In this document: positions 10,451 to 53,814 of the stretch, piece after piece
Position numbering within the stretch: position 1 is the stretch's first letter
Layout: the number at the start of each line of letters is the position of its first letter
NCBI GenBank assembly: GCA_031284265.1
Contig: JAITAG010000039.1
Span: 2,983-66,982, forward strand
DNA length: 64,000 nt
Source of the DNA: Puniceicoccales bacterium
GTDB lineage: Bacteria > Verrucomicrobiota > Verrucomicrobiia > Opitutales > LL51
Reading direction: 5' to 3'
Notes under the pieces: generated by a model
Seen by the model: the letters and a program-made list of their open reading frames with translations, nothing else
Databases searched by the model: none
What the model was told of the DNA's origin: nothing
Program-made: the position numbers and the translations under genes

Positions 10451-10552
10451 CTACGCACCCCAGAGGCGTTTTTTATGGCGATTGGCCTTTGAACGCTTGC
10501 TGCGCTTATGCTTATTCATCTTTAACCGACGTTTTTTCTTTAAATTTCCCAT
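10451..10552 (-). CDS. 33-aa highly basic micro-protein (bS22 / AURKAIP1-like small ribosomal-type protein)
   Basis: My own translation of the minus strand gives [33 protein letters not shown]. It is absent from the ORF track (<60 aa) and resembles the 'MGS.KKRR.KM.KHKHRK' family. Confidence 0.5.
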
Positions 10553-10891: not shown

Positions 10892-10922
10892 TAAAAAAAC
10901 TTCCCAGAAATGGGAAGTTTTT
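10892..10922 (-). terminator. rho-independent terminator downstream of the ATP/ADP translocase gene
   Basis: Minus strand reads GGAAAAACTTCCCAtttcTGGGAAGTTTTTTT, a stem followed by a U-tract, 23 nt after the stop at 10945. Confidence 0.7.
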
Positions 10923-10944
10923 CCAAGAAAAGATAAAAATGAAA

Positions 10945-12468
10945 TTATTTTGCCGATTTTTCGGAGATGGCTTCCACCCGACGGCTCAGGGCTTTGACGG
11001 AAAGTATCCATAGGGCACAAATGCCGATGAAGATGGTAAATGTGTAGGGCGCAATCGTGAAGTAATTGGCTCCGGGAATGAGCAGGAGTAGGGATTGAAT
11101 CCAGGCTCCACCGGCCTTGCCGAAACGTCCACCGACCACTTCCACAACGGCCTTGCCCTTAACTTTCATATCTTCGTCGAGGGGAATGTAAGCCATTTCC
11201 TTCGTTAGATCGAATAGGGCATATTTGACGGCCTTTGAAATGGCGACTACCAGCGCGCCGAATATGACCGCGCAGAATAGGGGAGTCGTCGCGAAGGATT
11301 GTAGCAGTGTGGCCAAATTCTCTCGGAATAGAACAAAAATGAAAAACGAAGAGCCCAGTAGGAATAGCATGAGTGGCGTCGCAAGGGCTGCCGTAAACCA
11401 GCGGCAATTGCGAAGAATGTTACCGCCAATGATGAGCATGACCATTGATGCGATGCCGCCGTAGAAGGTAAATTGATTCATGAACGTATTGTAGGCATTG
11501 GGATCGGAATACTGCATTCCCAATTGCTTTTTCCAAAGGCCTTCCACTAGATTGACACTGATACCATAGCATACGACCAGCGCCACGATGAGACCCAGGT
11601 AGGGGGACGTGAAAATGACTTTAAAACTTTGTAGGAGAGGCATTTTTTTCTTACCCTTTCCCGTATTGCCGGGAAGTTCCGGCTTGTCGTAGAAGCGCTT
11701 ATCGGTGAGCACATATCGATAAATCCAGCGGTAAATGCCCATGGCAATGAGTCCTAGGACAACGACGATCCCCATCATATATTTCAGGGAAATTTCCCAG
11801 GCGTCGACGCCGGCGGGAACTTTCGTACGAATATCGGAACACCATTCGCCGACTTTACCCTCCAATAGAACGGATATTTGGGCCATGAGTGCAAAGAACG
11901 CATACATTCGCTTAGCTTCGGAAGTTTTTGTGATTTGGTTAGCAAATTGCCAAAAGGACAGCGATAGCAGCGCCGATCCCCAGATTTCTGCCAAAATATA
12001 AAAAAGGGAATAGGACCAATTTCCAACGATGGCAATGGGCCAATGGAGGAAACCCGGAGCGGCTTCTCGCCAATTGGCTATGGTTTGGGGAGAGAAATGC
12101 AATAAGTCCAGATGGGGATAGATAAAAAATGCAAAGCAGCCGAAGAAGAGAATAAACGGCGTCAATGTCACATAGAATAGATGTTCATTGGTGAAAATAT
12201 TACTCGCCTTGGCATAGAGGAGCATGAAGATAATTGCCGCCGGCGCAACACAGTACCCTTTCAGAAACGGGATAACCTCCGCATCGGATCCTGGGCCCGT
12301 AACGATAAGCGAATCTTTAATGTTCCTCAAACAGGTGTAGTTAAAAAGAATACAAAAGAACATAAATCCCATGGGGATTGCTTTTTTGAGTTCGTACACA
12401 TAGAGTGGGAAAAAGATGCGTCGCAATTTTCCAAACTCTTGACCATTTCCTTGATTTATATCAGCCAT
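10945..12468 (-). CDS. tlc: ATP/ADP antiporter (nucleotide transport protein, Tlc/Npt family, TC 2.A.12)
   Basis: The N-terminus 'FGKLRRIFFPLYVYELKKAIPMGFMFFCILFNYTCLRNIKDSLIVT' closely mirrors the chlamydial Npt1 / rickettsial Tlc N-terminus. About 12 TM segments, 507 aa. Confidence 0.9.
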   Translation of the reverse strand: MADINQGNGQEFGKLRRIFFPLYVYELKKAIPMGFMFFCILFNYTCLRNIKDSLIVTGPGSDAEVIPFLKGYCVAPAAIIFMLLYAKASNIFTNEHLFYVTLTPFILFFGCFAFFIYPHLDLLHFSPQTIANWREAAPGFLHWPIAIVGNWSYSLFYILAEIWGSALLSLSFWQFANQITKTSEAKRMYAFFALMAQISVLLEGKVGEWCSDIRTKVPAGVDAWEISLKYMMGIVVVLGLIAMGIYRWIYRYVLTDKRFYDKPELPGNTGKGKKKMPLLQSFKVIFTSPYLGLIVALVVCYGISVNLVEGLWKKQLGMQYSDPNAYNTFMNQFTFYGGIASMVMLIIGGNILRNCRWFTAALATPLMLFLLGSSFFIFVLFRENLATLLQSFATTPLFCAVIFGALVVAISKAVKYALFDLTKEMAYIPLDEDMKVKGKAVVEVVGGRFGKAGGAWIQSLLLLIPGANYFTIAPYTFTIFIGICALWILSVKALSRRVEAISEKSAK

Positions 12469-12725
12469 AACTTACCTCTAGTTATTGAATGTTACATTAA
12501 CTCATTAATTAAACGTTAAGAGTCAAATACGTTTCTTTAGTATACAGTACTTCATTATTAGACAAGTTATTTTTTTAATTAATTATAATAGTACCCCCTT
12601 TGGGGTTTGTGTATGGATCAATAAACTAAAAAATATAATAAAAAATAATTATTTTCTTAAAAAATACTTTACATCGTAAAAATAATCAATAATTTATCAA
12701 ACTGTAGTTTAATTAAAATAAGCGT

Positions 12726-14018
12726 ATGAAAAACAGTAATAGAATAAAAATAGTATCGGCAATGATTGCGGGTACTTTGGGTGCTTCTTTCGTGGGACAA
12801 ATGGCGTTGGGGTGGCCCTGGAGTTGGTTCCGGAATAGGCCCCATATCGAAGCTAATCCTAGTCCGGATAATGAACAGCTTGTAGGTGATTCGTCAACGG
12901 AGAAAATTTCGATGTCTACAGACGAAGAAACGGAAGATACTGCATTGACTAGTAAGGAAGAGTATTTGGAAGATGCTTTGAAAGCAGGAAAAGTTCAAAT
13001 ATTTATGGATGGAAAAACGCAAATTTTTGTGTTGCTCAATGATGAAAACAAGCTATGTTTTTTACCTTTAAAAGATAAGGAAAAGTTTATTCAAGAGTTT
13101 GATGCAAATTCAATTAAAGATGATTGTTGCATGATCCTTGGAGGCATAGGGTTCTCATTGATTTTCAGTCGTGTCCAAGCGAGAGAGCAAATGGCATTTT
13201 ATGGATGCGATGTGTATGGAAAGCTTCTTAAACGCATTTTGGAAGCAGGAAATAATTTGCCTCAAAGGGAAAGGTATTTGGAAGATGCTTTGGCTGCAGG
13301 AGAAGTTCACATATTTACAGATGAAAAAGCGCACGCTGTTGTATGGGTCGACAGTGAAGGAAATCCATGTTTTTTACCTTTAAAAGATAAAACAGAATTT
13401 AAAAAGTTTAATAAAGATTTAATTGAAGATTTAATTGAAGATGATTATTGCCATGTCCTTCCCAGCCAACTGCTAGCACACCTTGCAGATAGGGACGAAA
13501 TGCAACAGCAAACGAAATTCTATGGAGCCGATGTGAATGAAAAGTTTTATAAACGCATCGTAAAAAGAAAATCTGATTTGGACAAAAAATTTAGTACAAG
13601 CAAATCGCAATGCCTAATGATTTTGAAGGATGATAAATGGAATGCGGTTTTGGTTGCTTTTAACTGGAATACGGGAAAATTGATGCCGCTTATAAATGGC
13701 ACAATGGGATCAGAATGTGAACGCGCATATGAAGTAAAACTTCCCCATGCAATTTACAACAAAATAGTTCTCCTTTTCAAGGTTATCCCAGATGCTTGTA
13801 TGATATACGATTGGAAAGCAAAGGCATTCAAAGTTGTGAAATGGAGCGTTGGCATAGCAGCAGCAAGTGCCAAGGATTTCGGCGGAAGGGCTTCGGAAAG
13901 TGCTAGAGATCTCGGTGGAAGAGCTTGGGAAGGTGTCAAGAGTCTCGGCGGAAGGGCTTGGAAAAAAGCTTGGGAAACTGCCAGGAATTTTACTGCAGTG
14001 AATCCTATTGCTGATTAA
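12726..14018 (+). CDS. orphan signal-peptide protein with two ~104-aa internal repeats and a C-terminal (D/S)LGGRAW x3 motif
   Basis: N-terminal 'IKIVSAMIAGTLGASFVGQMALG'. A 312-bp periodicity links 12962 to 13274 ('YLEDAL.AG.V.IF.D....CFLPLKDK..F'). No family recognised. Confidence 0.6.
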   Translation: MKNSNRIKIVSAMIAGTLGASFVGQMALGWPWSWFRNRPHIEANPSPDNEQLVGDSSTEKISMSTDEETEDTALTSKEEYLEDALKAGKVQIFMDGKTQIFVLLNDENKLCFLPLKDKEKFIQEFDANSIKDDCCMILGGIGFSLIFSRVQAREQMAFYGCDVYGKLLKRILEAGNNLPQRERYLEDALAAGEVHIFTDEKAHAVVWVDSEGNPCFLPLKDKTEFKKFNKDLIEDLIEDDYCHVLPSQLLAHLADRDEMQQQTKFYGADVNEKFYKRIVKRKSDLDKKFSTSKSQCLMILKDDKWNAVLVAFNWNTGKLMPLINGTMGSECERAYEVKLPHAIYNKIVLLFKVIPDACMIYDWKAKAFKVVKWSVGIAAASAKDFGGRASESARDLGGRAWEGVKSLGGRAWKKAWETARNFTAVNPIAD

Positions 14019-31983: not shown

Positions 31984-32619
31984 TTGATGAATAAGGGATT
32001 TGTCATTATTGTTTTTCGAATTTTTTTACTGCTTACTGTCCAAGCAGCTGAAATGTCCGTACCTGATGCTTTATCTATTTCGCCCGACGATGCGATTCCG
32101 CCGGTTTTATTACCGCCTCTTGCCCCTGTCGAAATTGGGAATTATTGGAGGATAACATCGTTTTGGCTATTTGTTATTGGTCTTTTAGTTTTACTTTTGG
32201 GTTTATTTTTCCGGCATCGGCGTTCCCTTCTTTCTGCTAAGTCCCTTTCTCCATTTCAGCAATTTCTCCGGGATCTACACCAAGCCAAATTGCACGTCGA
32301 CACAAAAGATACGAAGGAATTTTGTTCTGCGCTTTGTTTTGCTTTAAAATCCTATATACAACAGGAGTATCAATTACCCATAACCTGTCGAACAACGGAA
32401 GAATTTTTAAAAATTGTTCAGAATTCATCTAATTTTTCCTGGGAAATTGCAAGCGATTTGACAGATATTTTAATCTATTCCGATCAAGCTAAATTTGCGG
32501 GCATAAAATTTCAGAACGATTTCCATAGGGACTTGTTCCTCAAAACCTGCCGTTTCGTCCGCGAAGTAAAGCGCATTCGCCATTCGACTAAAACCGTAAC
32601 TAAACCTATTCAAAAATGA
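31984..32619 (+). CDS. single-TM protein preceding batA (DUF4381-like)
   Basis: Pro-rich segment, then the TM helix 'FWLFVIGLLVLLLGLFF'. It overlaps batA by 4 nt. The position matches the DUF4381 gene of Bat operons. Start uncertain. Confidence 0.45.
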   Translation: MMNKGFVIIVFRIFLLLTVQAAEMSVPDALSISPDDAIPPVLLPPLAPVEIGNYWRITSFWLFVIGLLVLLLGLFFRHRRSLLSAKSLSPFQQFLRDLHQAKLHVDTKDTKEFCSALCFALKSYIQQEYQLPITCRTTEEFLKIVQNSSNFSWEIASDLTDILIYSDQAKFAGIKFQNDFHRDLFLKTCRFVREVKRIRHSTKTVTKPIQK

Positions 32620-33653
32620 TCGACGCCTTTGAGTTTCACAGTAAAGAGTTTTTATGGCTATTCCTTCTTTTGCCCGTCGTTGCCTATATTTGTAAGCATT
32701 ACAAAAAACAGGCTACACTTTTCTTTCCCCATATCGAAACTTTAAAAAAAGCAATGGAGTTCCACCGTTCGAAAGCACAACATATTTTAAATGTTCTGCG
32801 TTTCTTAGCGCTCACCGCATTGATTTTTGCCCTAGCTCGCCCCCAAATTATCCACCGTTTTACGGAATCTCGTTCGAGCGGCATCGATATTATGCTTGCG
32901 GTGGACATTTCATCTTCAATGATGGGGCTTGACTTTCAAGAGCGGGATGAACGCAAAATAACGACGCGGTTGGATATTGCTAAACAGGTAACCAATGAAT
33001 TTATTCAAAATCGCCCCAATGATCGCATCGGCATGTGTGCCTTTGCGAGGGATGCTTATCTCGTCAGCCCCGTTACAATGAATCACAATTGGTTGGAAGA
33101 CAATTTGAAATGCTTACATGTCGGATTGGTCGAAGATGGGACGGCAATCGGAAATGCCCTTGCCATGTGCGCCAATCGCCTCAAAAATTCAGAATCTAAG
33201 ACGAAACTTATCGTCCTACTGACAGACGGCAGTAATACGGCAGGAAATATCGCTCCCCTCATGGCTACAGAAATGGCAGCGGCCCTAAATATTAAAATTT
33301 ACACCGTCGGGATCGGTAAAAAAGGGATCATCCCTTTTGCCTACCCTGACGAAAAGGGTAATGTTATGATAGATCCGTTCGGTCGGCCCATAGTCATTCA
33401 AGGACAAGCCGATCTCGATGAAACCCTACTCGAAACCATTGCCCAAAAAACGGAGGGACAATTTTTCCGCGCAGAAAATAAAAAACAACTGAGCGATATC
33501 TATACAACAATCGATCGGTTGGAAAAAACTGATGTAAAATTTAAACAGTTTGCCACCGTAAAAGACCTTTTTATTGGGTTTATCGGATGTGCATTGCTCC
33601 TCCTCCTCTTGGAGTGTTTTTTACGCCATTCAAAATTCCAGAAAATACCATGA
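32616..33653 (+). CDS. batA: VWA-domain membrane protein BatA
   Basis: MIDAS 'DIMLAVDISSSM', 'LLTDGSNTAG', and TM helices at both ends. Confidence 0.8.
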   Translation: MIDAFEFHSKEFLWLFLLLPVVAYICKHYKKQATLFFPHIETLKKAMEFHRSKAQHILNVLRFLALTALIFALARPQIIHRFTESRSSGIDIMLAVDISSSMMGLDFQERDERKITTRLDIAKQVTNEFIQNRPNDRIGMCAFARDAYLVSPVTMNHNWLEDNLKCLHVGLVEDGTAIGNALAMCANRLKNSESKTKLIVLLTDGSNTAGNIAPLMATEMAAALNIKIYTVGIGKKGIIPFAYPDEKGNVMIDPFGRPIVIQGQADLDETLLETIAQKTEGQFFRAENKKQLSDIYTTIDRLEKTDVKFKQFATVKDLFIGFIGCALLLLLLECFLRHSKFQKIP

Positions 33654-35689
33654 AATTTGGAAATACACTATTTTTGTTTCTATTGCCCCTATGGGTCACC
33701 TTGGGATTATCTATGGTCGTATGGGGACAAAGACGTCGATCGCGGCACCTCAAACAAATGGTTGCCCAACGCCTCTCCCCCCTATTGCTTTCGAACTACA
33801 GTACGGGGAGACAAAACTTAAAAAATTTGCTTTTCCTCGGCGCCATTGCATTCATTGGATTCGCCTTAGCCGCACCTAAATGGGGCCATAGACAAGAGGA
33901 ACGCTACGTGAAAGGCGTCGACCTACTGATTGCGGTAGATGTTTCCAAGAGTATGCTGGCAGAAGATATTAAGCCCAATCGCTTGGAACGGACAAAACTG
34001 ACCATTTTAGATCTTCTCAAATCTTTTAGCGGACATCGCGTCGGTCTCATCGCATTTGCTGGGAATTCATTTTTACAATGTCCCCTTACCCTTGATCACA
34101 ATGCCTTTGTTCAAAGCTTAAATGCCATTGATACGGATACAATCCCATTACCGGGTACGGCCATTAATGCGGCAATTGAATTAGCCGAAAAGGTCTATGA
34201 CCAAACGCAAAATCAAAAATTACTTTTTCTCTTTTCCGATGGTGAAGAACTGGCCGATAGCGCTATCGAAGGAGCTAGACAGGCAAAGAAACAAAATATT
34301 TGTATTTATACAATCGGCATCGGTTCGACGGAAGGCACTACGATTCTCATCGCGGATCCTACAACGGGAAAAATAAGTCCGCTATGTGACCGAAATGGAC
34401 AGGTGGTTAAAACTTCCCTCGATGAAAAGACGTTGCAAGAAGTTGCTGAAATGACCGATGGCCAATATTATCACCTATCCCCTGCAGCCCTATCACATTT
34501 ACAAAAAGATATACTCACTCGCTTTCCATTCATAAGAGAAACCGCCAATAAATATACCGAAAAAGTTTACCAGGAACGTTACCAATTATTTTTGTTTTTA
34601 GGATTTCTGCTGCTGCTGCTTGAAATGCTTATGGGCAATTATAAAAGACCGGAACAGTATTCCGTTTCCATTTATTACAAACTTTCGTCATTCCTTTTAG
34701 TTTTCCTATTCGCATTGAATAGCCTCTCTGCGAAGGAAAGCCAAGGGGAAATCTACTACAAAAATAAGGAATTTGAAAAGGCATTGGAATTTTATAATCA
34801 ACAATTGAAAAAAAAACCGGAAGATCGGGAGCTGCTTTACAATAAAGGAACGACTTGTCTCGCCCTAAAACAATACGAAGAGGCAATCGATTACCTCAAG
34901 AAATCGGCATCCGATGCACCCATAGCGCTACAGAAAAAAGCATTTTATAATTTAGGAAATACACTCTTTGAACAGGGACAGGGCTCACCTGAGCCTCAAA
35001 AAACATTGGAAAAATGGAAGGAAAGTTTGCGCCATTTTCAATCGACCGTAGATCTAGATGGACAATTTGAGGAAGCTAAGAAAAATACAAAATATGTCGA
35101 AGAGGCGATTAGAAAACTAGAGGAACAGCAAAGGTCTAAAAATCAGCAACAATCCAATGAGCCAAACAATCGACAGCAAAATTCCGACGATCGACAAAAC
35201 TCAGATCAGCAGAAGGACTCCAATGGGCAACAAAATTCCGACGATCAAAGAAATGAGGATAATCGGCAGCACTCCGATCAACAGCAAAACCCAGACGATC
35301 GACAAAACTCGGATCAACAGGACTCCAACGGACAACAAAATTCCGACGATCAAAGAAATGAAGATAATCGGCAGCACTCCAATCAACAGCAAAATCCAGA
35401 CGATCGACAAAACTCGGATCGGCAAAAGGACCCCAACGGGCAGCAAAATTCAGATGATCAAAGAAAATCTAAAAAGCAATCCCCAAATCAACGGCTTCCC
35501 GATAATCGCAACAAACCTAAAAATAGCGAATACCGGCAAAGTACGGCCCCAGATATATCGCAAGATCAAAAAATGTCCACCAGTGATGCCCTCCAAATAC
35601 TTGATGCTTTAGAAAATGAAGAAAAAAAATTGCTTTTAGAAAAGACTTATGGTAACATTAGAAACCGCAATCCTGAAAAATTTTGGTAA
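33650..35689 (+). CDS. batB: BatB-like VWA protein fused to a TPR (BatC-like) region and a Q/N/D-rich repeat tail
   Basis: ATGA overlap with batA. 'DLLIAVDVSKSM' and 'LFSDGEE'. TPR-like 'GEIYYKNKEFEKALEFYNQQLKK..'. The tail is a (DDRQNSDQQKDSNGQQNSDDQRNEDNRQHSDQQQNP) repeat. Confidence 0.75.
   Translation: MKFGNTLFLFLLPLWVTLGLSMVVWGQRRRSRHLKQMVAQRLSPLLLSNYSTGRQNLKNLLFLGAIAFIGFALAAPKWGHRQEERYVKGVDLLIAVDVSKSMLAEDIKPNRLERTKLTILDLLKSFSGHRVGLIAFAGNSFLQCPLTLDHNAFVQSLNAIDTDTIPLPGTAINAAIELAEKVYDQTQNQKLLFLFSDGEELADSAIEGARQAKKQNICIYTIGIGSTEGTTILIADPTTGKISPLCDRNGQVVKTSLDEKTLQEVAEMTDGQYYHLSPAALSHLQKDILTRFPFIRETANKYTEKVYQERYQLFLFLGFLLLLLEMLMGNYKRPEQYSVSIYYKLSSFLLVFLFALNSLSAKESQGEIYYKNKEFEKALEFYNQQLKKKPEDRELLYNKGTTCLALKQYEEAIDYLKKSASDAPIALQKKAFYNLGNTLFEQGQGSPEPQKTLEKWKESLRHFQSTVDLDGQFEEAKKNTKYVEEAIRKLEEQQRSKNQQQSNEPNNRQQNSDDRQNSDQQKDSNGQQNSDDQRNEDNRQHSDQQQNPDDRQNSDQQDSNGQQNSDDQRNEDNRQHSNQQQNPDDRQNSDRQKDPNGQQNSDDQRKSKKQSPNQRLPDNRNKPKNSEYRQSTAPDISQDQKMSTSDALQILDALENEEKKLLLEKTYGNIRNRNPEKFW
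35186..35470 (+). repeat. 108/105-bp in-frame tandem repeat (~2.7 copies) inside the batB-like gene
   Basis: Units start at 35186, 35294 and 35399 (GACGATCGACAAAACTC...). The second unit lacks one codon. Confidence 0.9.
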
Positions 35690-35690
35690 A

Positions 35691-37346
35691 ATGAGAGTGC
35701 AATTTTTTACAGTATTGATAGCGTTTTTGCAAATTTTAACTCTAGATGCTCAATCCCCTAGCATTAGCATTAATGCGCGATTTGAGCCGGTAGAAGCTAG
35801 TCTCTATAAAGAAATACGCTATATCATTGATATTACCAACGGCTTTCCCCGAGGTTTTTCTCCTCCTTCCGTTCCGGGTCTACGCAAGCGCGGCGAGAGT
35901 ATCTATCAATCATCGACTATGATTAATGGTATTAGTACACAAAAAGTATCGTTTATCTTTTCCTATATTCCCGAACAAACGGGTACCATTGAAATGCCGA
36001 AGTATGATATCGAAATCAATGGGGAACGTTATCCCGTTATGCCAGCTAAGGTAAAAATTTTAAATGATTCGAATGCAGTCGTTCACCAACGAAAACAGGG
36101 AGTTACCATTGATGCTGCCATTGATAGCGATCAAGCTTACGTCGGCCAAAATATTCCCGTTACGATTACCGTGCGTCTCAACGAAGTACAATTATTGGGG
36201 GCCATCAACCCCAAGATTTTAAACGATACCTTTCTCCTGTCTCCCCTCTCGAAGCAGCCAAAGGTACAGTTGAATGGGGATTATGAAACTTATTCCTGGA
36301 ACACTTTTATTACCCCGCTGAAAAGTGGAAATCACCAGGTTACATTTGAGGCATTCTGCCCGATTCAGTTCATCCATACGGTAGGATTTTTCTCATTGGC
36401 AGAGGAAGAATTGGTTCACGTGATTTCCCAACCCGTTGCCCTTGAAGTTCAATCACTGCCCGAAGCACCGGTAAATTTTTGCGGCGGTATTGGACAATTT
36501 GCACTCAAAAATCTCCGCCTATCATCGGATCGCACATTGATCGGCGAACCGATTACGCTATCCATGGATATCGTCGGAGAAGGTAATTTTTCTCGCCTGC
36601 AACCTCCAGAAATTGCGAGCGATGAACGATGGAAAGTTTTCTCGCCTAGGATTACATCTGTCGCCCAGGATACAAAAACAATAGAATACGTCATTGTGCC
36701 CCAAAAAACGGGAGAAATTGCCATTCCCGATATCGCATTTACCTATTTCAATCCTCAAACGGAGTGCTTTGAGACTGCAAGTATCGATAATGCTAAAAAA
36801 ATTGTCCTCGTATCCCGCTCCGCGGAAGCGTTCCCCAATTATGCCGAAACCGAAAATAAAACCAATGACAAAAATAAACCGAAAATTTCCCCATTCCATA
36901 TCCTCTCTGAGGATACATTTCACCATGGGACGTTGATGCCGATTTATTTCCAATCTTGGTTTTGGATCCTTCAAGGATGCTTGGCGGTAGTTGCCCTACT
37001 GTTTGGAATAGGAACTTGGAAACCACGCATAAAAGAAAAAACGCCGAAATGGAACATAAAAAAAATAGAAAAATCTCTCATACAAGCCGCTAGGGGAACG
37101 GATGTGAGCATATTTTATAGCCTAGCTACACAATTTATTCGCCAAAAATTGGCCACCTATTCCATCGTCACTGAACAGCGATCGGAACAAATTAAACAGC
37201 TACAGAAAATGGGCGTTAAGCATTTGAAATGGTTTGAATCCTTTTTAAATGAGGCAGATGCCATTGCTTTTGGCCAGTCCCAGGTCAATAAAAAACACAT
37301 CGATCAACAATTGGAAAAATTACTGATGTTCCTTAAACAACCCTAA
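35691..37346 (+). CDS. batD: BatD-like protein
   Basis: ATG 35691 lies 1 nt after the upstream stop. Signal peptide 'FFTVLIAFLQILTLDAQS', a large beta-rich ectodomain and one C-terminal TM helix. The position in the operon fits BatD. Confidence 0.6.
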   Translation: MRVQFFTVLIAFLQILTLDAQSPSISINARFEPVEASLYKEIRYIIDITNGFPRGFSPPSVPGLRKRGESIYQSSTMINGISTQKVSFIFSYIPEQTGTIEMPKYDIEINGERYPVMPAKVKILNDSNAVVHQRKQGVTIDAAIDSDQAYVGQNIPVTITVRLNEVQLLGAINPKILNDTFLLSPLSKQPKVQLNGDYETYSWNTFITPLKSGNHQVTFEAFCPIQFIHTVGFFSLAEEELVHVISQPVALEVQSLPEAPVNFCGGIGQFALKNLRLSSDRTLIGEPITLSMDIVGEGNFSRLQPPEIASDERWKVFSPRITSVAQDTKTIEYVIVPQKTGEIAIPDIAFTYFNPQTECFETASIDNAKKIVLVSRSAEAFPNYAETENKTNDKNKPKISPFHILSEDTFHHGTLMPIYFQSWFWILQGCLAVVALLFGIGTWKPRIKEKTPKWNIKKIEKSLIQAARGTDVSIFYSLATQFIRQKLATYSIVTEQRSEQIKQLQKMGVKHLKWFESFLNEADAIAFGQSQVNKKHIDQQLEKLLMFLKQP

Positions 37347-38940: not shown

Positions 38941-40002
38941 TTAAGTGTCAAATTGAAAGTCTTGAATTTTTCTGAAAAATATGCGCATATTTTCTGCCCG
39001 AAGACAGTCTCTTTCTTCGGTGGATAAGTCCTTATCGTACAAAACGACGAGATTACCCGGCTGTGATTCTACCATATAGCGATCAATTCCTGCACGATTT
39101 TTTTCGTCTATGAAGCCGCAATCGGTTGCCAGGCGCATCCATGCCAACATTTCGAATGCTTCCTCACTCGTCAAGGTATAGCAGGAACGCAGTATACCGT
39201 AAATCCGTCCAATTTTATCTAAAAATTGCGCATGATTGTATTTTAGAAGTCCTTCTCGAGCAGCTATTTCCTGATCTATAATCGTTCGAATGATATGTTC
39301 CAAACGTTGAATTTCATCTACTTCGCTGATCCCTAACGTCTGCTGATTCGAAATTTGGTAGATATGTCCTAACGCTTTAGTCCCTTCTCCATGCATACCG
39401 CGGACCACAATCCCAATCTGTTGAACTGCCTCGACGAGATGCCGAACCTGTTCCGCCATACTGAGTCCGGGAAGATGAAGCATTACAGAAGCTCGCATTC
39501 CCGTTCCAAGATTACTCGGGCACGTCGTTAAATACCCCATAGTGGGTGAAAAAGCATAGTGACCATCGTCAATCACATCGTCAATATCATTAATCTTTTT
39601 CCAGGAATCGCGCAACTGTAACCCATTATTGATGACCTGAATTCTAAGGTGATCCTCCTCATTAACCATGATTGACGCTGAGGATCGATCGCTGCAAATA
39701 ACGCCCGTTCCCGACTTTCTTTCAAGTAGTTCCTTACTGATTACGCGACGTTCCTGAAGTGCCAATTGTTCAGGTTGCGTCAATACCGATAAATCGATAA
39801 AAATTTTAAAATCTTTTAATTTTTCGATGTAACGTTTTGCAAAATCGAGAATCTCGACGCGCTCCCTATCTCCGGCATGGGCGGGAAATTTAAATTGGGT
39901 AAAATTGCGCGCCAAACGTACACGGGAACTCAATACAATGGCTTGACTGCGTTCCTCAAAACGCTTGCTATATTCCAAAAGAAGTGCTTTAATCATTCCC
40001 AT
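38941..40002 (-). CDS. mcsB: protein arginine kinase (ATP:guanido phosphotransferase)
   Basis: 'NEEDHLRIQ' and 'CPSNLGTGMRASVMLHLPGL' are phosphagen-kinase signatures. The start is taken at Met29 of the ORF (40002). The ORF opens at 40086, inside mcsA. Confidence 0.85.
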   Translation of the reverse strand: MGMIKALLLEYSKRFEERSQAIVLSSRVRLARNFTQFKFPAHAGDRERVEILDFAKRYIEKLKDFKIFIDLSVLTQPEQLALQERRVISKELLERKSGTGVICSDRSSASIMVNEEDHLRIQVINNGLQLRDSWKKINDIDDVIDDGHYAFSPTMGYLTTCPSNLGTGMRASVMLHLPGLSMAEQVRHLVEAVQQIGIVVRGMHGEGTKALGHIYQISNQQTLGISEVDEIQRLEHIIRTIIDQEIAAREGLLKYNHAQFLDKIGRIYGILRSCYTLTSEEAFEMLAWMRLATDCGFIDEKNRAGIDRYMVESQPGNLVVLYDKDLSTEERDCLRAENMRIFFRKIQDFQFDT

Positions 40003-40489
40003 TTTGCAGTAAACGAAGTTGGTCCCTAATTTTTGCAGCTTCTTCAAAATGTTCCGCTTTAATCGCCTGCCATAATTGTTCTTCAAGCGATTCCTTTGTT
40101 AAATTTTTATCCCCATGAATAGTAAAGCCTTTAGGTCGCTTTCCTATATGATGTAAACCTTTTTGCATATTTTCAATCAAATGTAAAAGCTGTCTACTTA
40201 AATGTTCATAGCACTGGAAACAACCCAGGCATCCTGTTTTTTTGAAAAATTCCATTGTGTAACCGCAATGTTTGCAACTACCCTGAGCAGCAATCGATAA
40301 ACTGAGATCACCAAAAAGTGCAGTACCAATATTTTGGGCTACCGTAAGGGGTACCATTTTACTGACTAAAACCCCGTAACCGCGCGCACAAGCTTCGCAT
40401 AGACCAATTGACTGCTTTATTCCCTTCACAACCTGTTCGATATGAACAGCTGCTGGCTTTCCACAAATACTGCATTTCAGTAGTTCCAT
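39989..40489 (-). CDS. mcsA: McsA-like activator of protein arginine kinase (Cys-rich zinc fingers + UVR motif)
   Basis: 'CSICGK..CEAC', 'CKHCG..CLGCFQC', and a C-terminal UVR-like 'LEEQLWQAIKAEHFEEAAKIRDQLRLL'. Confidence 0.75.
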   Translation of the reverse strand: MELLKCSICGKPAAVHIEQVVKGIKQSIGLCEACARGYGVLVSKMVPLTVAQNIGTALFGDLSLSIAAQGSCKHCGYTMEFFKKTGCLGCFQCYEHLSRQLLHLIENMQKGLHHIGKRPKGFTIHGDKNLTKESLEEQLWQAIKAEHFEEAAKIRDQLRLLQNGND

Positions 40490-50520: not shown

Positions 50521-50917
50521 AATTTAAAATTTAAAAATATGATCGATTCTATAATTTATGATAAAAACTTTTCATTATATCTTCGTCTTTTTAAATTCAT
50601 AAGTCATGTCAATACCCAAGATATATAAAATCTTCCCCGCAATATTGGAGTCTTATCGTGTAAAACTATTTTTGCTGTATTTACATGTCATTCATAATTT
50701 ATCGAAAGCAATTACTTGTATCATAGTCTTCCACGCATGGGTTAGCTTATGAAATAAACATTCATTAGACCATTTAGAGAAAAGGCATAATATTTCAATC
50801 CATGGCTTTTAAGCCATAGAATAGTAAATTGAGTATCCCAATTGTTACGACAAATTCAACAGTGGGTGTTGAGGTATCTTACTACTCGGAATGATAAATA
50901 TTTAATTTTTTTCATTC

Positions 50918-51014
50918 GGAGCCGGGGATGAGATTCGAACTCACGACCCACGCATTACGAATGCGTTGCTCTACCAGCTGAGCTACCCCGGCAAAATTTA
51001 TCGGAATTTATATT
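50918..51014 (-). repeat. 97-bp perfect direct repeat, copy 1 (entire tRNA-Thr-CGT plus 22 nt of its 5' flank)
   Basis: Identical base for base to 53641-53737 (GGAGCCGGGGATGAG...GGCAAAATTTATCGGAATTTATATT). Confidence 0.95.
50920..50992 (-). tRNA. tRNA-Thr (CGT), copy 1
   Basis: The reverse complement folds with acceptor GCCGGGG/CCCCGGC, anticodon arm ACGCA-TTCGTAA-TGCGT and T-arm GTGAG-TTCGAAT-CTCAT. CCA is not encoded. Confidence 0.9.
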
Positions 51015-51381
51015 GGCCAATAAAGCAAAATCTTTTATGGAATATGCGGTTATTCCGATGGTGAAGAGTGCGGTCTGTTCTAAATTATTGGAATTGGTTC
51101 CGGATAATAAAGTGTGCGACGAATTTTTGGAAGCGCTGGAAAATAGGAATTCAAACATCTGGAAATGCTTAGAATTTATAGTTGCATACAACATAAATAA
51201 TTTTATAAAAGATTGCCTTAAAGCAAAGTTGAATCCTGATTCGCCTATTGAAAAATTTACGGAAGGTCTAACAGGAATTCTAACGAAACCTGTATTCGAT
51301 GCATTCAACGTAGGAGACGATAAATGGTTGGAGCTGGATTTCTTATTATGTGATTATATCCAGGAGAGTCCCCATCTCTAA
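51013..51381 (+). CDS. hypothetical protein (no recognisable family)
   Basis: 122-aa ORF starting at TTG 51013 or ATG 51037, at the edge of the tRNA repeat. No motif recognised. Confidence 0.35.
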   Translation: MANKAKSFMEYAVIPMVKSAVCSKLLELVPDNKVCDEFLEALENRNSNIWKCLEFIVAYNINNFIKDCLKAKLNPDSPIEKFTEGLTGILTKPVFDAFNVGDDKWLELDFLLCDYIQESPHL

Positions 51382-51668: not shown

Positions 51669-53048
51669 TTATTCGCCTTGTTTTCCATTGAAAAATAACG
51701 CCGTTTCTTCCACAATTACTTTCCTCAAGCCGATCAATCCGGTAAGATTGGCAATGGCCATTAATCCCGTTGCAATATCCGCTATGGTAAATATGATATC
51801 AATTTTAAAAAATGGACCGATAATGACAAAAAAAAGAAACAGAATTTTGTATGCGGCAATTGCTCCCGTTCCCCAAAGATACTGGACACACTTTTCGCCA
51901 TAATAATTCCATCCGATAATTGTAGTAAAGGCAAAAAATAGGATACCCAAATCGACGACATACTTTCCCAATGTGGCATTTTTCAGTCCCAATCCGAAGG
52001 CATGGGAAGTAATAAGCGCCCCATCGATGGTATATTGGGGTGTAAAAATAGCGGTTTCTTTCGATGTAATGATGAGCACAAGGGCAGTCATCGTACAAAC
52101 GATAATGGAAAAAAATGCCCCTATCATGGAAACTAATCCCTGTTTTACGGGGGAATCGGTTTTGGCCGCTGCGGCAGCGATGGCAGCGCTACCCAAGCCC
52201 GATTCATGGGAAAATATGCCGCGGCTTATTCCCAATTTCATCGTCGTCATAAATGTGATGCCCATGCTGCCACCGAGAATAGCTTCCGGAGAAAATGCTC
52301 CGCGTACGATGAGATAGATCGCGTGGGGGATTAAATTTGCTTTCATGATGAGTAAAACGATGGCTGCGCCGATATAAAAAATACTCATGAATGGGACTAT
52401 TTTTTCCGAAACGTAGGCGATCCGCTGTATGCCGCCAATGGTAACCACGGCAACAATGATCCCCAAAAGTATGGCCGTTAAAACTAGGGGAATGCCTAGG
52501 GAATTGGCGGCAGCGGCGGCTATGGAATTACTTTGTGTCCACGTACCAATGCCGATGAGGGCCGTACCCATTCCGAAGAATGCAAATAATTTAGCCAGCC
52601 ATTTGTTTCCCAATCCCATTTCGATGTAGTACATGGGGCCACCGGCGATTTTGCCATCGCTACCCATTTGGCGGTACTTGATCGCCAGCAAGCCTTCGGC
52701 GTATTTCGCAGCCATTCCGAAGAAAGCGGCTATCCACATCCAAAATATGGCTCCCGGTCCTCCCGTTGTGACGGCCAACGCGACACCGACGATATTTCCC
52801 GTTCCCAGCGTTGCCGATAGGGCCGCACAAAAGGAAGCAAAATTAGAAATATCGCCTTTGCCATCCTGGTATTTTTTGCCATCAATGACATATTTTATAG
52901 CCAATTTCAAGCGGGAAATTTGTAAAAATTTCAATTTAAAGGAAAAATAGATACTGATGCCGAGAAGAGCCGTAATCAGAGGGAGCCCCCAAATGGTACG
53001 ATTGATGGCCATCACAAGGTCATGGATTATTTCTGAGTAGTTGTTCAT
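51669..53048 (-). CDS. alanine/glycine:cation symporter (AGCS family)
   Basis: About 11 TM helices. 'GPGAIFWMWIAAFFGMAAKYAEGLLAIKYR' and 'GISRGIFSHESGLGSAAIAAAAAKT' are typical AGCS blocks. Confidence 0.85.
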   Translation of the reverse strand: MNNYSEIIHDLVMAINRTIWGLPLITALLGISIYFSFKLKFLQISRLKLAIKYVIDGKKYQDGKGDISNFASFCAALSATLGTGNIVGVALAVTTGGPGAIFWMWIAAFFGMAAKYAEGLLAIKYRQMGSDGKIAGGPMYYIEMGLGNKWLAKLFAFFGMGTALIGIGTWTQSNSIAAAAANSLGIPLVLTAILLGIIVAVVTIGGIQRIAYVSEKIVPFMSIFYIGAAIVLLIMKANLIPHAIYLIVRGAFSPEAILGGSMGITFMTTMKLGISRGIFSHESGLGSAAIAAAAAKTDSPVKQGLVSMIGAFFSIIVCTMTALVLIITSKETAIFTPQYTIDGALITSHAFGLGLKNATLGKYVVDLGILFFAFTTIIGWNYYGEKCVQYLWGTGAIAAYKILFLFFVIIGPFFKIDIIFTIADIATGLMAIANLTGLIGLRKVIVEETALFFNGKQGE

Positions 53049-53609: not shown

Positions 53610-53640
53610 AGGTGGGTCTTGGCGATAATTGACGTTATCT

Positions 53641-53737
53641 GGAGCCGGGGATGAGATTCGAACTCACGACCCACGCATTACGAATGCGTTGCTCTACCAG
53701 CTGAGCTACCCCGGCAAAATTTATCGGAATTTATATT
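53641..53737 (-). repeat. 97-bp perfect direct repeat, copy 2
   Basis: Identical to 50918-51014. Confidence 0.95.
53643..53715 (-). tRNA. tRNA-Thr (CGT), copy 2
   Basis: Sequence identical to 50920-50992. Confidence 0.9.
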
Positions 53738-53814
53738 TCCTAAAAAATTGCAAAATTCCCAATCTCGTGGACAATTTTCATCTAAAAAAATCCAAATTCA
53801 CTGTAAAATAACGG

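What the first reader, a model, noticed from the sequence alone, without database searches (positions are those of the whole stretch)
10945..12468. ATP/ADP translocase (Tlc/Npt): marker of energy parasitism and an intracellular lifestyle
The 507-aa protein has the diagnostic N-terminus of nucleotide transport proteins (FGKLRR.FFP....ELKK..PM.FMFFCILFNYT.LR..KD.LIVT) and about 12 TM helices. The gene has its own clean terminator (10892-10922) and a very AT-rich 250-bp upstream region. This family (TC 2.A.12) is essentially restricted to obligate intracellular bacteria (Chlamydiae, Rickettsiales and some other endosymbionts), plastids and microsporidia. Its co-occurrence here with an SctC secretin, PVC-style pilin-like proteins and a Bat operon suggests a host-dependent PVC-lineage organism that is not a typical chlamydia.
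Basis: partly seen in the sequence, partly recalled or inferred. Interest (0 to 1): 0.55.

Follow-up and report, generated by a model that had tools for sequence, protein, structure and literature searches.

The report
Nucleotide (ATP/ADP) transporter of termite-gut Verrucomicrobia
The gene is a genuine, intact nucleotide transporter of the kind intracellular bacteria use to take ATP from host cells, but it belongs to a termite-gut lineage of Verrucomicrobia where such transporters were already reported in 2024, so it is a solid new example and not a discovery.

Summary
Window 10945..12468 (-) encodes an intact 507-aa protein that matches Pfam TLC end to end (595 bits) and NCBIfam TIGR00769 (550 bits; cut-off 387). 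It is 44-49% identical in a global alignment to two structurally solved ADP/ATP carriers. It has 12 hydrophobic segments and the four charged transmembrane residues critical in Arabidopsis NTT1. It also has a conserved Shine-Dalgarno site, a 21% GC upstream region and a strong terminator hairpin.

The organism is not a chlamydia. The closest relatives (84-94% aa) are Puniceicoccales/Opitutales (Verrucomicrobiota) MAGs from lower-termite guts. They share gene order with the window, and their housekeeping flanks are as diverged as the transporter gene. dN/dS is 0.03-0.07. All 60 sampled verrucomicrobial NTTs form one clade (bootstrap 100) inside the group holding chlamydial Npt1, plant NTT1 and Rickettsia Tlc1.

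Best reading: an ATP/ADP exchanger of a putative flagellate symbiont. Transport activity, substrate range and host dependence are inferred, not shown. Mies et al. 2024 already reported NTTs in these Opitutales, so this is a new member of a known kind. The premise that the family is restricted to intracellular organisms is outdated. One useful by-product: a 2025 paper proposing that family UBA9783 may be free-living overlooked this gene in its own MAG.

The parts
10945..12468 (-). Coding sequence of a 507-aa single-domain nucleotide transport protein (NTT/Tlc/Npt; AAA family, TC 2.A.12), 12 predicted TM segments
   Evidence: ORF. PF03219 594.9 bits. TIGR00769 549.7 bits. PDB 9J3N E=2e-148 and 9J3J E=1.3e-120. 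12 hydropathy peaks. K70/E161/E309/K451 conserved. dN/dS 0.03-0.07 against orthologs.
10892..10925 (-). Intrinsic-terminator-like hairpin (GC core CUUCCCA/UGGGAAG, loop UUUC) with a U-run, starting 20 nt after the stop codon
   Evidence: Sequence. Fold -17.7 kcal/mol, z = -5.48, 0 of 200 shuffles as stable.
12469..12725 (-). AT-rich (21.4% GC) intergenic region between the NTT gene and the divergent ORF 12726..14018, presumed to hold the promoter and 5' leader. It contains a conserved A-tract followed by CTTGTCT (12566..12560) and TATACT (12544..12539), and a small CCCC-AAA-GGGG hairpin at 12593..12606.
   Evidence: GC content. Alignment of 9 orthologous upstream regions. The count of promoter-like hits is NOT above the shuffle expectation (8 vs 6.7 +/- 2.8), so the promoter assignment is an inference. 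No Rfam family was found in the leader.
12475..12479 (-). Shine-Dalgarno AGAGG, 6 nt upstream of the ATG at 12468
   Evidence: Sequence. Conserved as AGAGG/AAAGG in most of the aligned orthologous loci.

Best explanation
The gene encodes an inner-membrane nucleotide transport protein of the canonical single-domain, 12-helix NTT type. It most probably works as a counter-exchanger, importing ATP from a eukaryotic host compartment and exporting ADP (with phosphate, as described for chlamydial and plastid NTT1; this point is from my own knowledge). It looks like a single-gene transcription unit, with its own AT-rich promoter region, Shine-Dalgarno site and intrinsic terminator. The organism is a Puniceicoccales/Opitutales verrucomicrobium of a sub-clade so far recovered only from lower (flagellate-bearing) termites. 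The gene was inherited vertically in that sub-clade and is under strong purifying selection. Shown: family membership, intactness, conservation, taxonomic placement, synteny. Inferred: ATP/ADP specificity, direction of net flux, and the host-associated (flagellate endosymbiont) lifestyle. A further inference concerns the F0F1 ATPase reported in the related family UBA9783, which lacks a respiratory chain. It could run in reverse on imported ATP to build a proton-motive force.
For: Family: searches give full-length matches far above the curated cut-offs, and 44-49% global identity to two solved 'ADP,ATP carrier protein 1' structures. Topology: 12 hydrophobic segments. Residues: the spacing of AtNTT1 K155/E245/E385/K527 maps to one unique position set, and K70/E161/E309/K451 are invariant in all 83 aligned sequences. 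Phylogeny: in a bootstrapped NJ tree all 60 verrucomicrobial NTTs are monophyletic (100). They lie inside the clade containing chlamydial Npt1 (9J3N), AtNTT1 (9J3J) and Rickettsia Tlc1, separated from two Parachlamydiales out-paralogs (100). The window protein is 49/44/45% identical to those three but only 36% identical to the out-paralogs. Vertical inheritance: the order rpoD-dnaG-SNF2 ... NTT-small basic ORF-kdsB-tRNA-Ser is conserved. Flanks are 75-81% nt identical against 82% for the NTT gene. RpoD is 93-94% and SNF2 84% aa identical in L002/L004. Function retained: dN/dS 0.025-0.074 with dS above 1. Lifestyle: the closest MAGs come only from Kalotermitidae and Porotermes guts. Mies et al. 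2024 list NTT-bearing Opitutales families LL51/UBA9783 as putative flagellate endosymbionts with genomes under 1.5 Mb, and place the intranuclear Ca. Nucleococcus among these putatively endosymbiotic Opitutales. A true SctC secretin and a weak CesT-like chaperone lie in the same window. None of about 45 annotated genes in the window is for de novo amino-acid, nucleotide or cofactor synthesis.
Against: There are no transport data. The four charged residues are also conserved in the out-paralogs, so they mark the family and not ATP/ADP specificity. The tree is NJ with only two non-class-I paralogs, and deep nodes are weakly supported (33-63). The related family UBA9783 reportedly lacks nucleotide biosynthesis. 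I found only one NTT per locus, so a broader substrate range is plausible. The Opitutales NTT clade also includes MAGs from groundwater, marine and mammalian-gut samples. One of these is on contigs up to 677 kb, beside a fused 2-oxoacid dehydrogenase and a fatty-acid desaturase. The gene alone therefore does not prove an intracellular life. The window has ordinary gene content (LPS genes, pilins, Bat operon, a histidine kinase) and at least 82% of it is covered by the ORFs of 150 aa or more plus tRNA genes that I counted. That shows no sign of extreme reduction.
Confidence: 0.7

Rival explanations
1. The protein is a broad-specificity nucleotide importer (NTP/NDP exchanger or H+ symporter, possibly also NAD+). 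Its main role would be to supply nucleotides to a bacterium that cannot synthesise them, and not to provide energy.
For: The related family UBA9783 reportedly lacks nucleotide biosynthesis pathways. Only one NTT gene was seen per verrucomicrobial locus. NCBI names the family generically as 'NTP/NDP exchange transporter'. The conserved charged residues do not discriminate classes. From my own knowledge, C. trachomatis Npt1 also carries NAD and microsporidian NTTs carry several purine nucleotides.
Against: The protein groups with the three characterised ATP/ADP exchangers and away from the chlamydial out-paralogs (bootstrap 100). Identity is 44-49% to the exchangers and 36% to the paralogs. Whole genomes were not searched, so further paralogs elsewhere cannot be excluded.
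Confidence: 0.17
2. The bacterium lives free in the gut lumen, or attached to the outside of other cells. It would use the transporter to scavenge extracellular nucleotides released by lysis, so the gene would not mark an intracellular lifestyle.
For: NTTs occur in free-living bacteria (Major et al. 2017). The Opitutales NTT clade includes groundwater, marine and mammalian-gut MAGs. The mSphere 2025 paper argues that UBA9783 could be free-living scavengers. The window retains LPS, pilin and Bat genes.
Against: A counter-exchanger gives no net adenylate gain. It pays off only where the external ATP/ADP ratio is high, as in cytoplasm or nucleoplasm (general knowledge). The window's sub-clade was recovered only from flagellate-bearing lower termites. 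An SctC secretin is present. The mSphere paper did not consider the NTT at all. Most free-living examples in Major et al. are NTT-HEAT fusions, which this protein is not.
Confidence: 0.1
3. The gene is foreign to this genome: a recent horizontal acquisition from Chlamydiae or Rickettsiales, or a chimeric or mis-binned contig.
For: NTT genes are frequently transferred among termite flagellate endosymbionts (Mies et al. 2024). The gene's GC (47%) is slightly above the window mean (42.6%).
Against: The same gene sits in the same neighbourhood in at least 10 independent MAGs. Flank divergence equals gene divergence. All verrucomicrobial NTTs are monophyletic. The best chlamydial match is only 52% identical. 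Mies et al. also infer ancestral presence in Opitutales.
Confidence: 0.02

Closest known systems
NTTs of termite-gut Opitutales/Puniceicoccales MAGs (GTDB families LL51 and UBA9783; Mies et al. 2024, mBio, PMC11257099), e.g. Gsp477_bin70, Cc175_bin33, Ct408_bin149
   Same: 84-94% aa identity over the full length, the same gene neighbourhood, and the same lower-termite habitat of the relatives. The paper already reports NTTs in these putatively endosymbiotic Opitutales and infers that the gene is ancestral in the order.
   Different: No identical protein is on record. Nucleotide identity to the nearest GTDB species representatives is only about 80-83%, which suggests a different species. I could not tell which GTDB family the window belongs to, because it has no rRNA and the supplement table is truncated.
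ADP,ATP carrier protein 1 of PDB 9J3N/9J3O (by my reading of the sequence, a chlamydial Npt1)
   Same: The alignment runs end to end (query 10-497 against chain 7-493, E=2e-148). Global identity is 49%. The 12-TM single-domain architecture is the same and all family-invariant charged residues are shared.
   Different: It comes from a different phylum. The verrucomicrobial clade is separate from the chlamydial sequences in the tree. The activity of the window protein is untested.
Arabidopsis plastid ATP/ADP transporter AtNTT1 (PDB 9J3J) and Rickettsia Tlc1
   Same: 44% and 45% identity. K155/E245/E385/K527 equivalents are conserved. Both fall in the same class-I-like clade against the out-paralogs.
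   Different: The window protein has no transit peptide. Loop lengths differ (for example a longer 268-277 loop than AtNTT1). The branching order among these groups is unresolved (bootstrap 33-94).
NTT-HEAT and NTT-HEAT-cNBD fusion proteins of free-living bacteria (Major et al. 2017, PMC5381601)
   Same: They share the Pfam TLC domain.
   Different: The window protein is 507 aa with only the TLC domain and no HEAT or cNBD module. It clusters with the canonical parasite/plastid transporters.

Membership tests
NTT / AAA family (TC 2.A.12; Pfam PF03219 TLC; TIGR00769) | Full-length match to the family profiles above the curated cut-offs | tested here: met
   PF03219: 594.9 bits (cut-off 21), profile positions 5-489 of 491. 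TIGR00769: 549.7 bits (cut-off 387.2).
NTT / AAA family (TC 2.A.12; Pfam PF03219 TLC; TIGR00769) | About 12 transmembrane helices in a single-domain protein of about 500 aa | tested here: met
   12 hydropathy peaks. End-to-end alignment to the solved structures 9J3N and 9J3J. No additional Pfam domain. No 3D model was built.
NTT / AAA family (TC 2.A.12; Pfam PF03219 TLC; TIGR00769) | Charged intramembrane residues essential in AtNTT1 (K155, E245, E385, K527; Trentmann et al. 2000, numbering from memory, checked by unique spacing) | tested here: met
   The K/E/E/K spacing has one unique solution in the 9J3J sequence. The equivalents K70, E161, E309 and K451 are invariant in all 83 aligned sequences.
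Class I ATP/ADP counter-exchangers (Npt1 / NTT1 / Tlc1 type) | Phylogenetic placement with characterised ATP/ADP exchangers and not with the nucleotide/H+ symporter or NAD+ carrier paralogs | tested here: inconclusive
   The NJ tree groups it with 9J3N, 9J3J and Rickettsia Tlc1 against two Parachlamydiales paralogs (bootstrap 100). Identity is 44-49% against 36%. However, only two uncharacterised out-paralogs were available, and no ML analysis with NTT2-5, Tlc2-5 or Npt2 was possible.
Class I ATP/ADP counter-exchangers (Npt1 / NTT1 / Tlc1 type) | Measured ATP/ADP counter-exchange | not testable with these tools
   Requires heterologous expression and radiolabelled uptake and back-exchange assays.
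Putatively endosymbiotic termite-gut Opitutales (LL51/UBA9783; 'Nucleococcus cluster') | Orthology and synteny with MAGs of that lineage | tested here: met
   NTT 84-94%, RpoD 87-94%, SNF2 65-84% and KdsB 52-76% aa identity, in conserved order, with Puniceicoccales MAGs from lower termites.
Putatively endosymbiotic termite-gut Opitutales (LL51/UBA9783; 'Nucleococcus cluster') | Reduced genome (under 1.5 Mb) and loss of biosynthetic pathways | not testable with these tools
   Only 64 kb is available. No de novo biosynthesis genes are among about 45 annotated genes, which is weak support at best. The genome sizes come from the literature.
Putatively endosymbiotic termite-gut Opitutales (LL51/UBA9783; 'Nucleococcus cluster') | 16S rRNA affiliation and intracellular or intranuclear localisation in flagellates | not testable with these tools
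   The window has no rRNA gene. Localisation needs FISH.

The most novel reading that the evidence does not exclude
The canonical ATP-importing NTT, together with a type III secretion secretin, may be ancestral to a whole radiation of small-genome Opitutales (LL51, UBA9783 and relatives). That radiation is found in termites and also in ruminant, horse and human guts. If so, these bacteria would be a second PVC lineage, besides Chlamydiae, living as energy parasites or symbionts of eukaryotic cells (gut protists). One of them, MAG 101_22-192, was recently interpreted as a possible free-living scavenger, and that MAG carries an overlooked intact NTT. Imported ATP would explain its otherwise puzzling F0F1 ATPase without a respiratory chain.
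Probability: 0.3. Interest if true: 0.6.

Novelty: new member of a known kind. Interest (0 to 1): 0.3.

Why it matters
As a single gene it matters little. It is a well-conserved ortholog of transporters that NCBI already annotates as 'NTP/NDP exchange transporter' in dozens of Puniceicoccales MAGs, and Mies et al. 2024 discussed them.

Its value lies in the context. It supports the view that a sizeable clade of Verrucomicrobia shares with Chlamydiae two genes regarded as hallmarks of the endosymbiont lifestyle, an NTT and a T3SS secretin. It also gives a clean, full-length, strongly constrained candidate for a biochemical test of nucleotide transport outside Chlamydiae, Rickettsiales and plastids.

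In addition, it exposes a gap in a recent metabolic reconstruction of family UBA9783 in farm animals. The NTT was not considered there, and including it changes the most plausible lifestyle and energy budget for that family.

Tried and rejected
- **Exact-sequence look-up of the protein.** It is not on record, so the source sample could not be identified directly.
- **Two literature searches for the paper behind the 9J3N/9J3J structures.** Nothing is held. Nucleotide-contacting residues from the structure could therefore not be checked. Only the four mutagenesis-defined charged residues were tested, and they do not discriminate substrate class.
- **Simple promoter/terminator scan.** Promoter-like hits are not above the shuffle expectation, so I make no statistical claim for a promoter. 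The scanner also missed the terminator, which folding then confirmed.
- **Rfam scan.** Only tRNAs were found. There is no riboswitch or leader family upstream of the gene and no rRNA for taxonomy.
- **Supplement look-ups for GTDB family and genome size of the closest MAGs.** The stored table is truncated before the Verrucomicrobiota rows. Only sample codes and host termites could be recovered.
- **Recent HGT or contamination.** Considered and rejected on synteny and equal flank divergence.
- **Pseudogene.** Considered and rejected on the intact ORF and dN/dS of 0.03-0.07.
- **Tandem NTT paralogs.** Sought in the window and in all 80 loci. Only a Parachlamydiales locus has them. Whole genomes could not be searched.

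Full report
**1. Observation**

Window 10945..12468 on the minus strand is an uninterrupted ATG-to-TAA ORF of 507 aa.

- Pfam TLC (PF03219) matches at 594.9 bits, E=1.7e-178, over profile positions 5-489 of 491. No other credible domain is present.
- NCBIfam TIGR00769 ('NTP/NDP exchange transporter') scores 549.7 bits against a cut-off of 387.2.
- Two solved structures match end to end. 9J3N 'ADP,ATP carrier protein 1' gives E=2e-148, query 10-497 against chain 7-493. 9J3J 'ADP,ATP carrier protein 1, chloroplastic' gives E=1.3e-120.
- A hydropathy scan gives exactly 12 hydrophobic segments.
- The hairpin 20 nt after the stop codon (10925..10892) folds at -17.7 kcal/mol, with z = -5.5 and no shuffle out of 200 as stable. 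It ends in a U-run.
- The 257-nt upstream spacer is 21.4% GC, against 42.6% for the window.
- An AGAGG Shine-Dalgarno lies 6 nt before the ATG and is conserved in most orthologous loci. So is an A-tract/CTTG...TATACT block further upstream.
- The promoter assignment remains an inference. The count of promoter-like sites is not above shuffles.

**2. Whose gene is it?**

The nearest proteins are not chlamydial. Every source-named protein among the 120 best hits (54-92% identity) is labelled Puniceicoccales or Opitutales.

In the species-representative genome collection, the top loci (84-94% aa) are Puniceicoccales MAGs. Their sample codes belong to the lower-termite gut metagenomes of Mies et al. 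2024. The hosts are Glyptotermes, Cryptotermes, Calcaritermes, Procryptotermes, Neotermes and Incisitermes (Kalotermitidae), plus Porotermes.

These loci share the window's gene order: rpoD-dnaG-SNF2 helicase ... NTT-33-aa basic ORF-kdsB-tRNA-Ser. The flanks are 75-81% nt identical and the NTT gene is about 82%. RpoD is 93-94% and SNF2 84% aa identical in L002 and L004.

The gene is therefore native and vertically inherited. The window probably represents a species not identical to any representative, and no identical protein is on record. Contamination or recent transfer is excluded.

**3. Is it functional, and what class is it?**

Against nine orthologs, dN/dS is 0.025-0.074 wherever dS could be estimated, and dS exceeds 1. 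That is strong purifying selection.

I built a bootstrapped NJ tree of 83 sequences. It comprised the window protein, 78 loci, the two PDB sequences, and two extra NTT paralogs found beside the Parachlamydiales NTT in L060.

- All 60 verrucomicrobial sequences form one clade (bootstrap 100).
- The window lies in a termite-only sub-clade (100).
- The whole clade sits inside a group with 9J3N, AtNTT1 (9J3J) and Rickettsia Tlc1. That group is separated from the two out-paralogs (100).

Global identities are 49%, 44% and 45% to those three, against 36% to the out-paralogs.

The spacing of the four charged residues shown by mutagenesis to be critical in AtNTT1 (K155, E245, E385, K527; numbering from memory) has one unique solution in the 9J3J sequence. 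The equivalents K70, E161, E309 and K451 are invariant. They are also invariant in the out-paralogs, so they confirm family membership and not substrate class.

ATP/ADP exchange is my best-supported inference (about 0.7), not a demonstrated property. Deep nodes of the tree are weak (33-63), so the origin of the Opitutales clade is unresolved.

**4. Lifestyle**

Mies et al. 2024 (PMC11257099) state that Opitutales families LL51 and UBA9783 from lower termites have genomes under 1.5 Mb and lower GC than related MAGs. They also state that an NTT is present in these putatively endosymbiotic Opitutales. They place the intranuclear Ca. Nucleococcus among these Opitutales. [quoted passage not shown] Williams et al. 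2021 report about 1 Mb for the unpublished Nucleococcus MAG.

My data agree with both halves of that picture.

- The window's sub-clade is known only from lower termites.
- The larger clade contains MAGs from horse faeces, yak rumen, Hadza human gut and groundwater.
- It also contains a deep-branching UBA3534-type member that occurs in Tara data. It lies on contigs up to 677 kb, next to a fused 2-oxoacid dehydrogenase and a fatty-acid desaturase.

The gene by itself is thus not proof of an intracellular life.

In the window, the secretin at 57979..60597 passes the SctC equivalog threshold (318 vs 238 bits). It is followed by a weak CesT-like ORF. None of about 45 annotated genes is for de novo biosynthesis. 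These points fit host interaction but are not decisive. At least 82% of the window is covered by the ORFs of 150 aa or more plus tRNA genes that I counted. LPS, pilin, Bat and histidine-kinase genes are present. Together these show no extreme erosion.

**5. A by-product worth noting**

Locus L022 is contig JBKSMP010000021.1 of MAG 101_22-192. This is the 984-kb UBA9783 genome described in mSphere 2025 (PMC12306168). It encodes an intact 507-aa NTT that is 63% identical to the window protein.

That paper never mentions an NTT, translocase, exchange, protist or ciliate. It suggests that UBA9783 may be free-living scavengers. It calls the F0F1 ATP synthase 'unexpected', because no respiratory chain is present.

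An ATP importer offers a simple alternative: imported ATP hydrolysed by F0F1 could energise the membrane. This is an inference, but it is testable.

**6. Verdict**

The finding is a new member of a known kind. NTTs in exactly this lineage are annotated in public MAGs and were discussed in 2024. Interest is modest (0.3).

The most novel reading still open (about 0.3) is that NTT plus T3SS is ancestral to a broad radiation of small-genome gut Opitutales. That would make them a second PVC lineage of energy parasites or symbionts of eukaryotic cells, including members in farm animals and humans.

Noticed in passing
window 10451..10552 (-): An unannotatable-looking 33-aa, extremely basic ORF ([33 protein letters not shown]) lies between the NTT gene and kdsB. 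It just passes Pfam COX24_C (23.1 bits, cut-off 23). It is 94-100% identical at the same position in 8 related MAG loci. It is probably a bS22/AURKAIP1-type small ribosomal protein (name from memory).
   Followed up: partly
window 12726..14018 (+): A 430-aa ORF is transcribed divergently from the NTT gene and has no family match. It has a hydrophobic signal-like N-terminus and two internal ~45-aa repeats (YLEDAL.AG.V.IF.D...CFLPLKDK). Positional counterparts in relatives are only 24-34% identical, while flanking genes are 65-94%. It is a fast-evolving candidate secreted or effector protein.
   Followed up: partly
window 57979..61128 (-): The secretin is a bona fide T3SS SctC (TIGR02516 318 bits vs cut-off 238, plus a SPI-1-type N0 domain). 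Immediately upstream of it on the coding strand (60598..61128) is a weak CesT-like chaperone ORF (20.9 bits, below the cut-off of 22). No other T3SS genes are adjacent. A CesT gene also lies near the NTT in a related gut contig, L083. T3SS is not mentioned for these bacteria in Mies et al. 2024.
   Followed up: partly
L022 9995..11518 (JBKSMP010000021.1, MAG 101_22-192): The UBA9783 MAG that mSphere 2025 described as a possible free-living scavenger encodes an intact 507-aa NTT (63% identical to the window protein). The paper does not mention it. This could explain its 'unexpected' F0F1 ATPase without a respiratory chain.
   Followed up: partly
window 50903..51024 and 53626..53747: tRNA-Thr(CGT) is duplicated within a 122-nt direct repeat (91% identical). 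The copies flank a Na+:alanine symporter gene (51669..53048, -) and a low-GC (34%) stretch. This may be a local duplication or the remnant of a tRNA-targeted insertion.
   Followed up: no
window 32616..37346 (+) and 38941..40489 (-): There is a complete-looking BatA/BatB(VWA-TPR)/BatD operon. There is also a McsB (protein arginine kinase)/McsA-like pair, which is more familiar from Firmicutes (that last point is from my own knowledge).
   Followed up: no
L081/L082 (P0101, UBA3534-type Opitutia; contigs up to 677 kb; Tara and other samples): A deep-branching verrucomicrobial NTT (57% identical) sits next to a fused E1/E2 2-oxoacid dehydrogenase, a fatty-acid desaturase and an SSF symporter. This suggests a larger, aerobic genome that still keeps a canonical NTT.
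   Followed up: partly
L003 87..386 (upstream of the NTT ortholog in Gsp477_bin70): The otherwise AT-rich promoter region is interrupted here by GC-rich repeated sequence (GGGGATTCTAAGGGCG... twice). This looks like a small repeat-element insertion.
   Followed up: no
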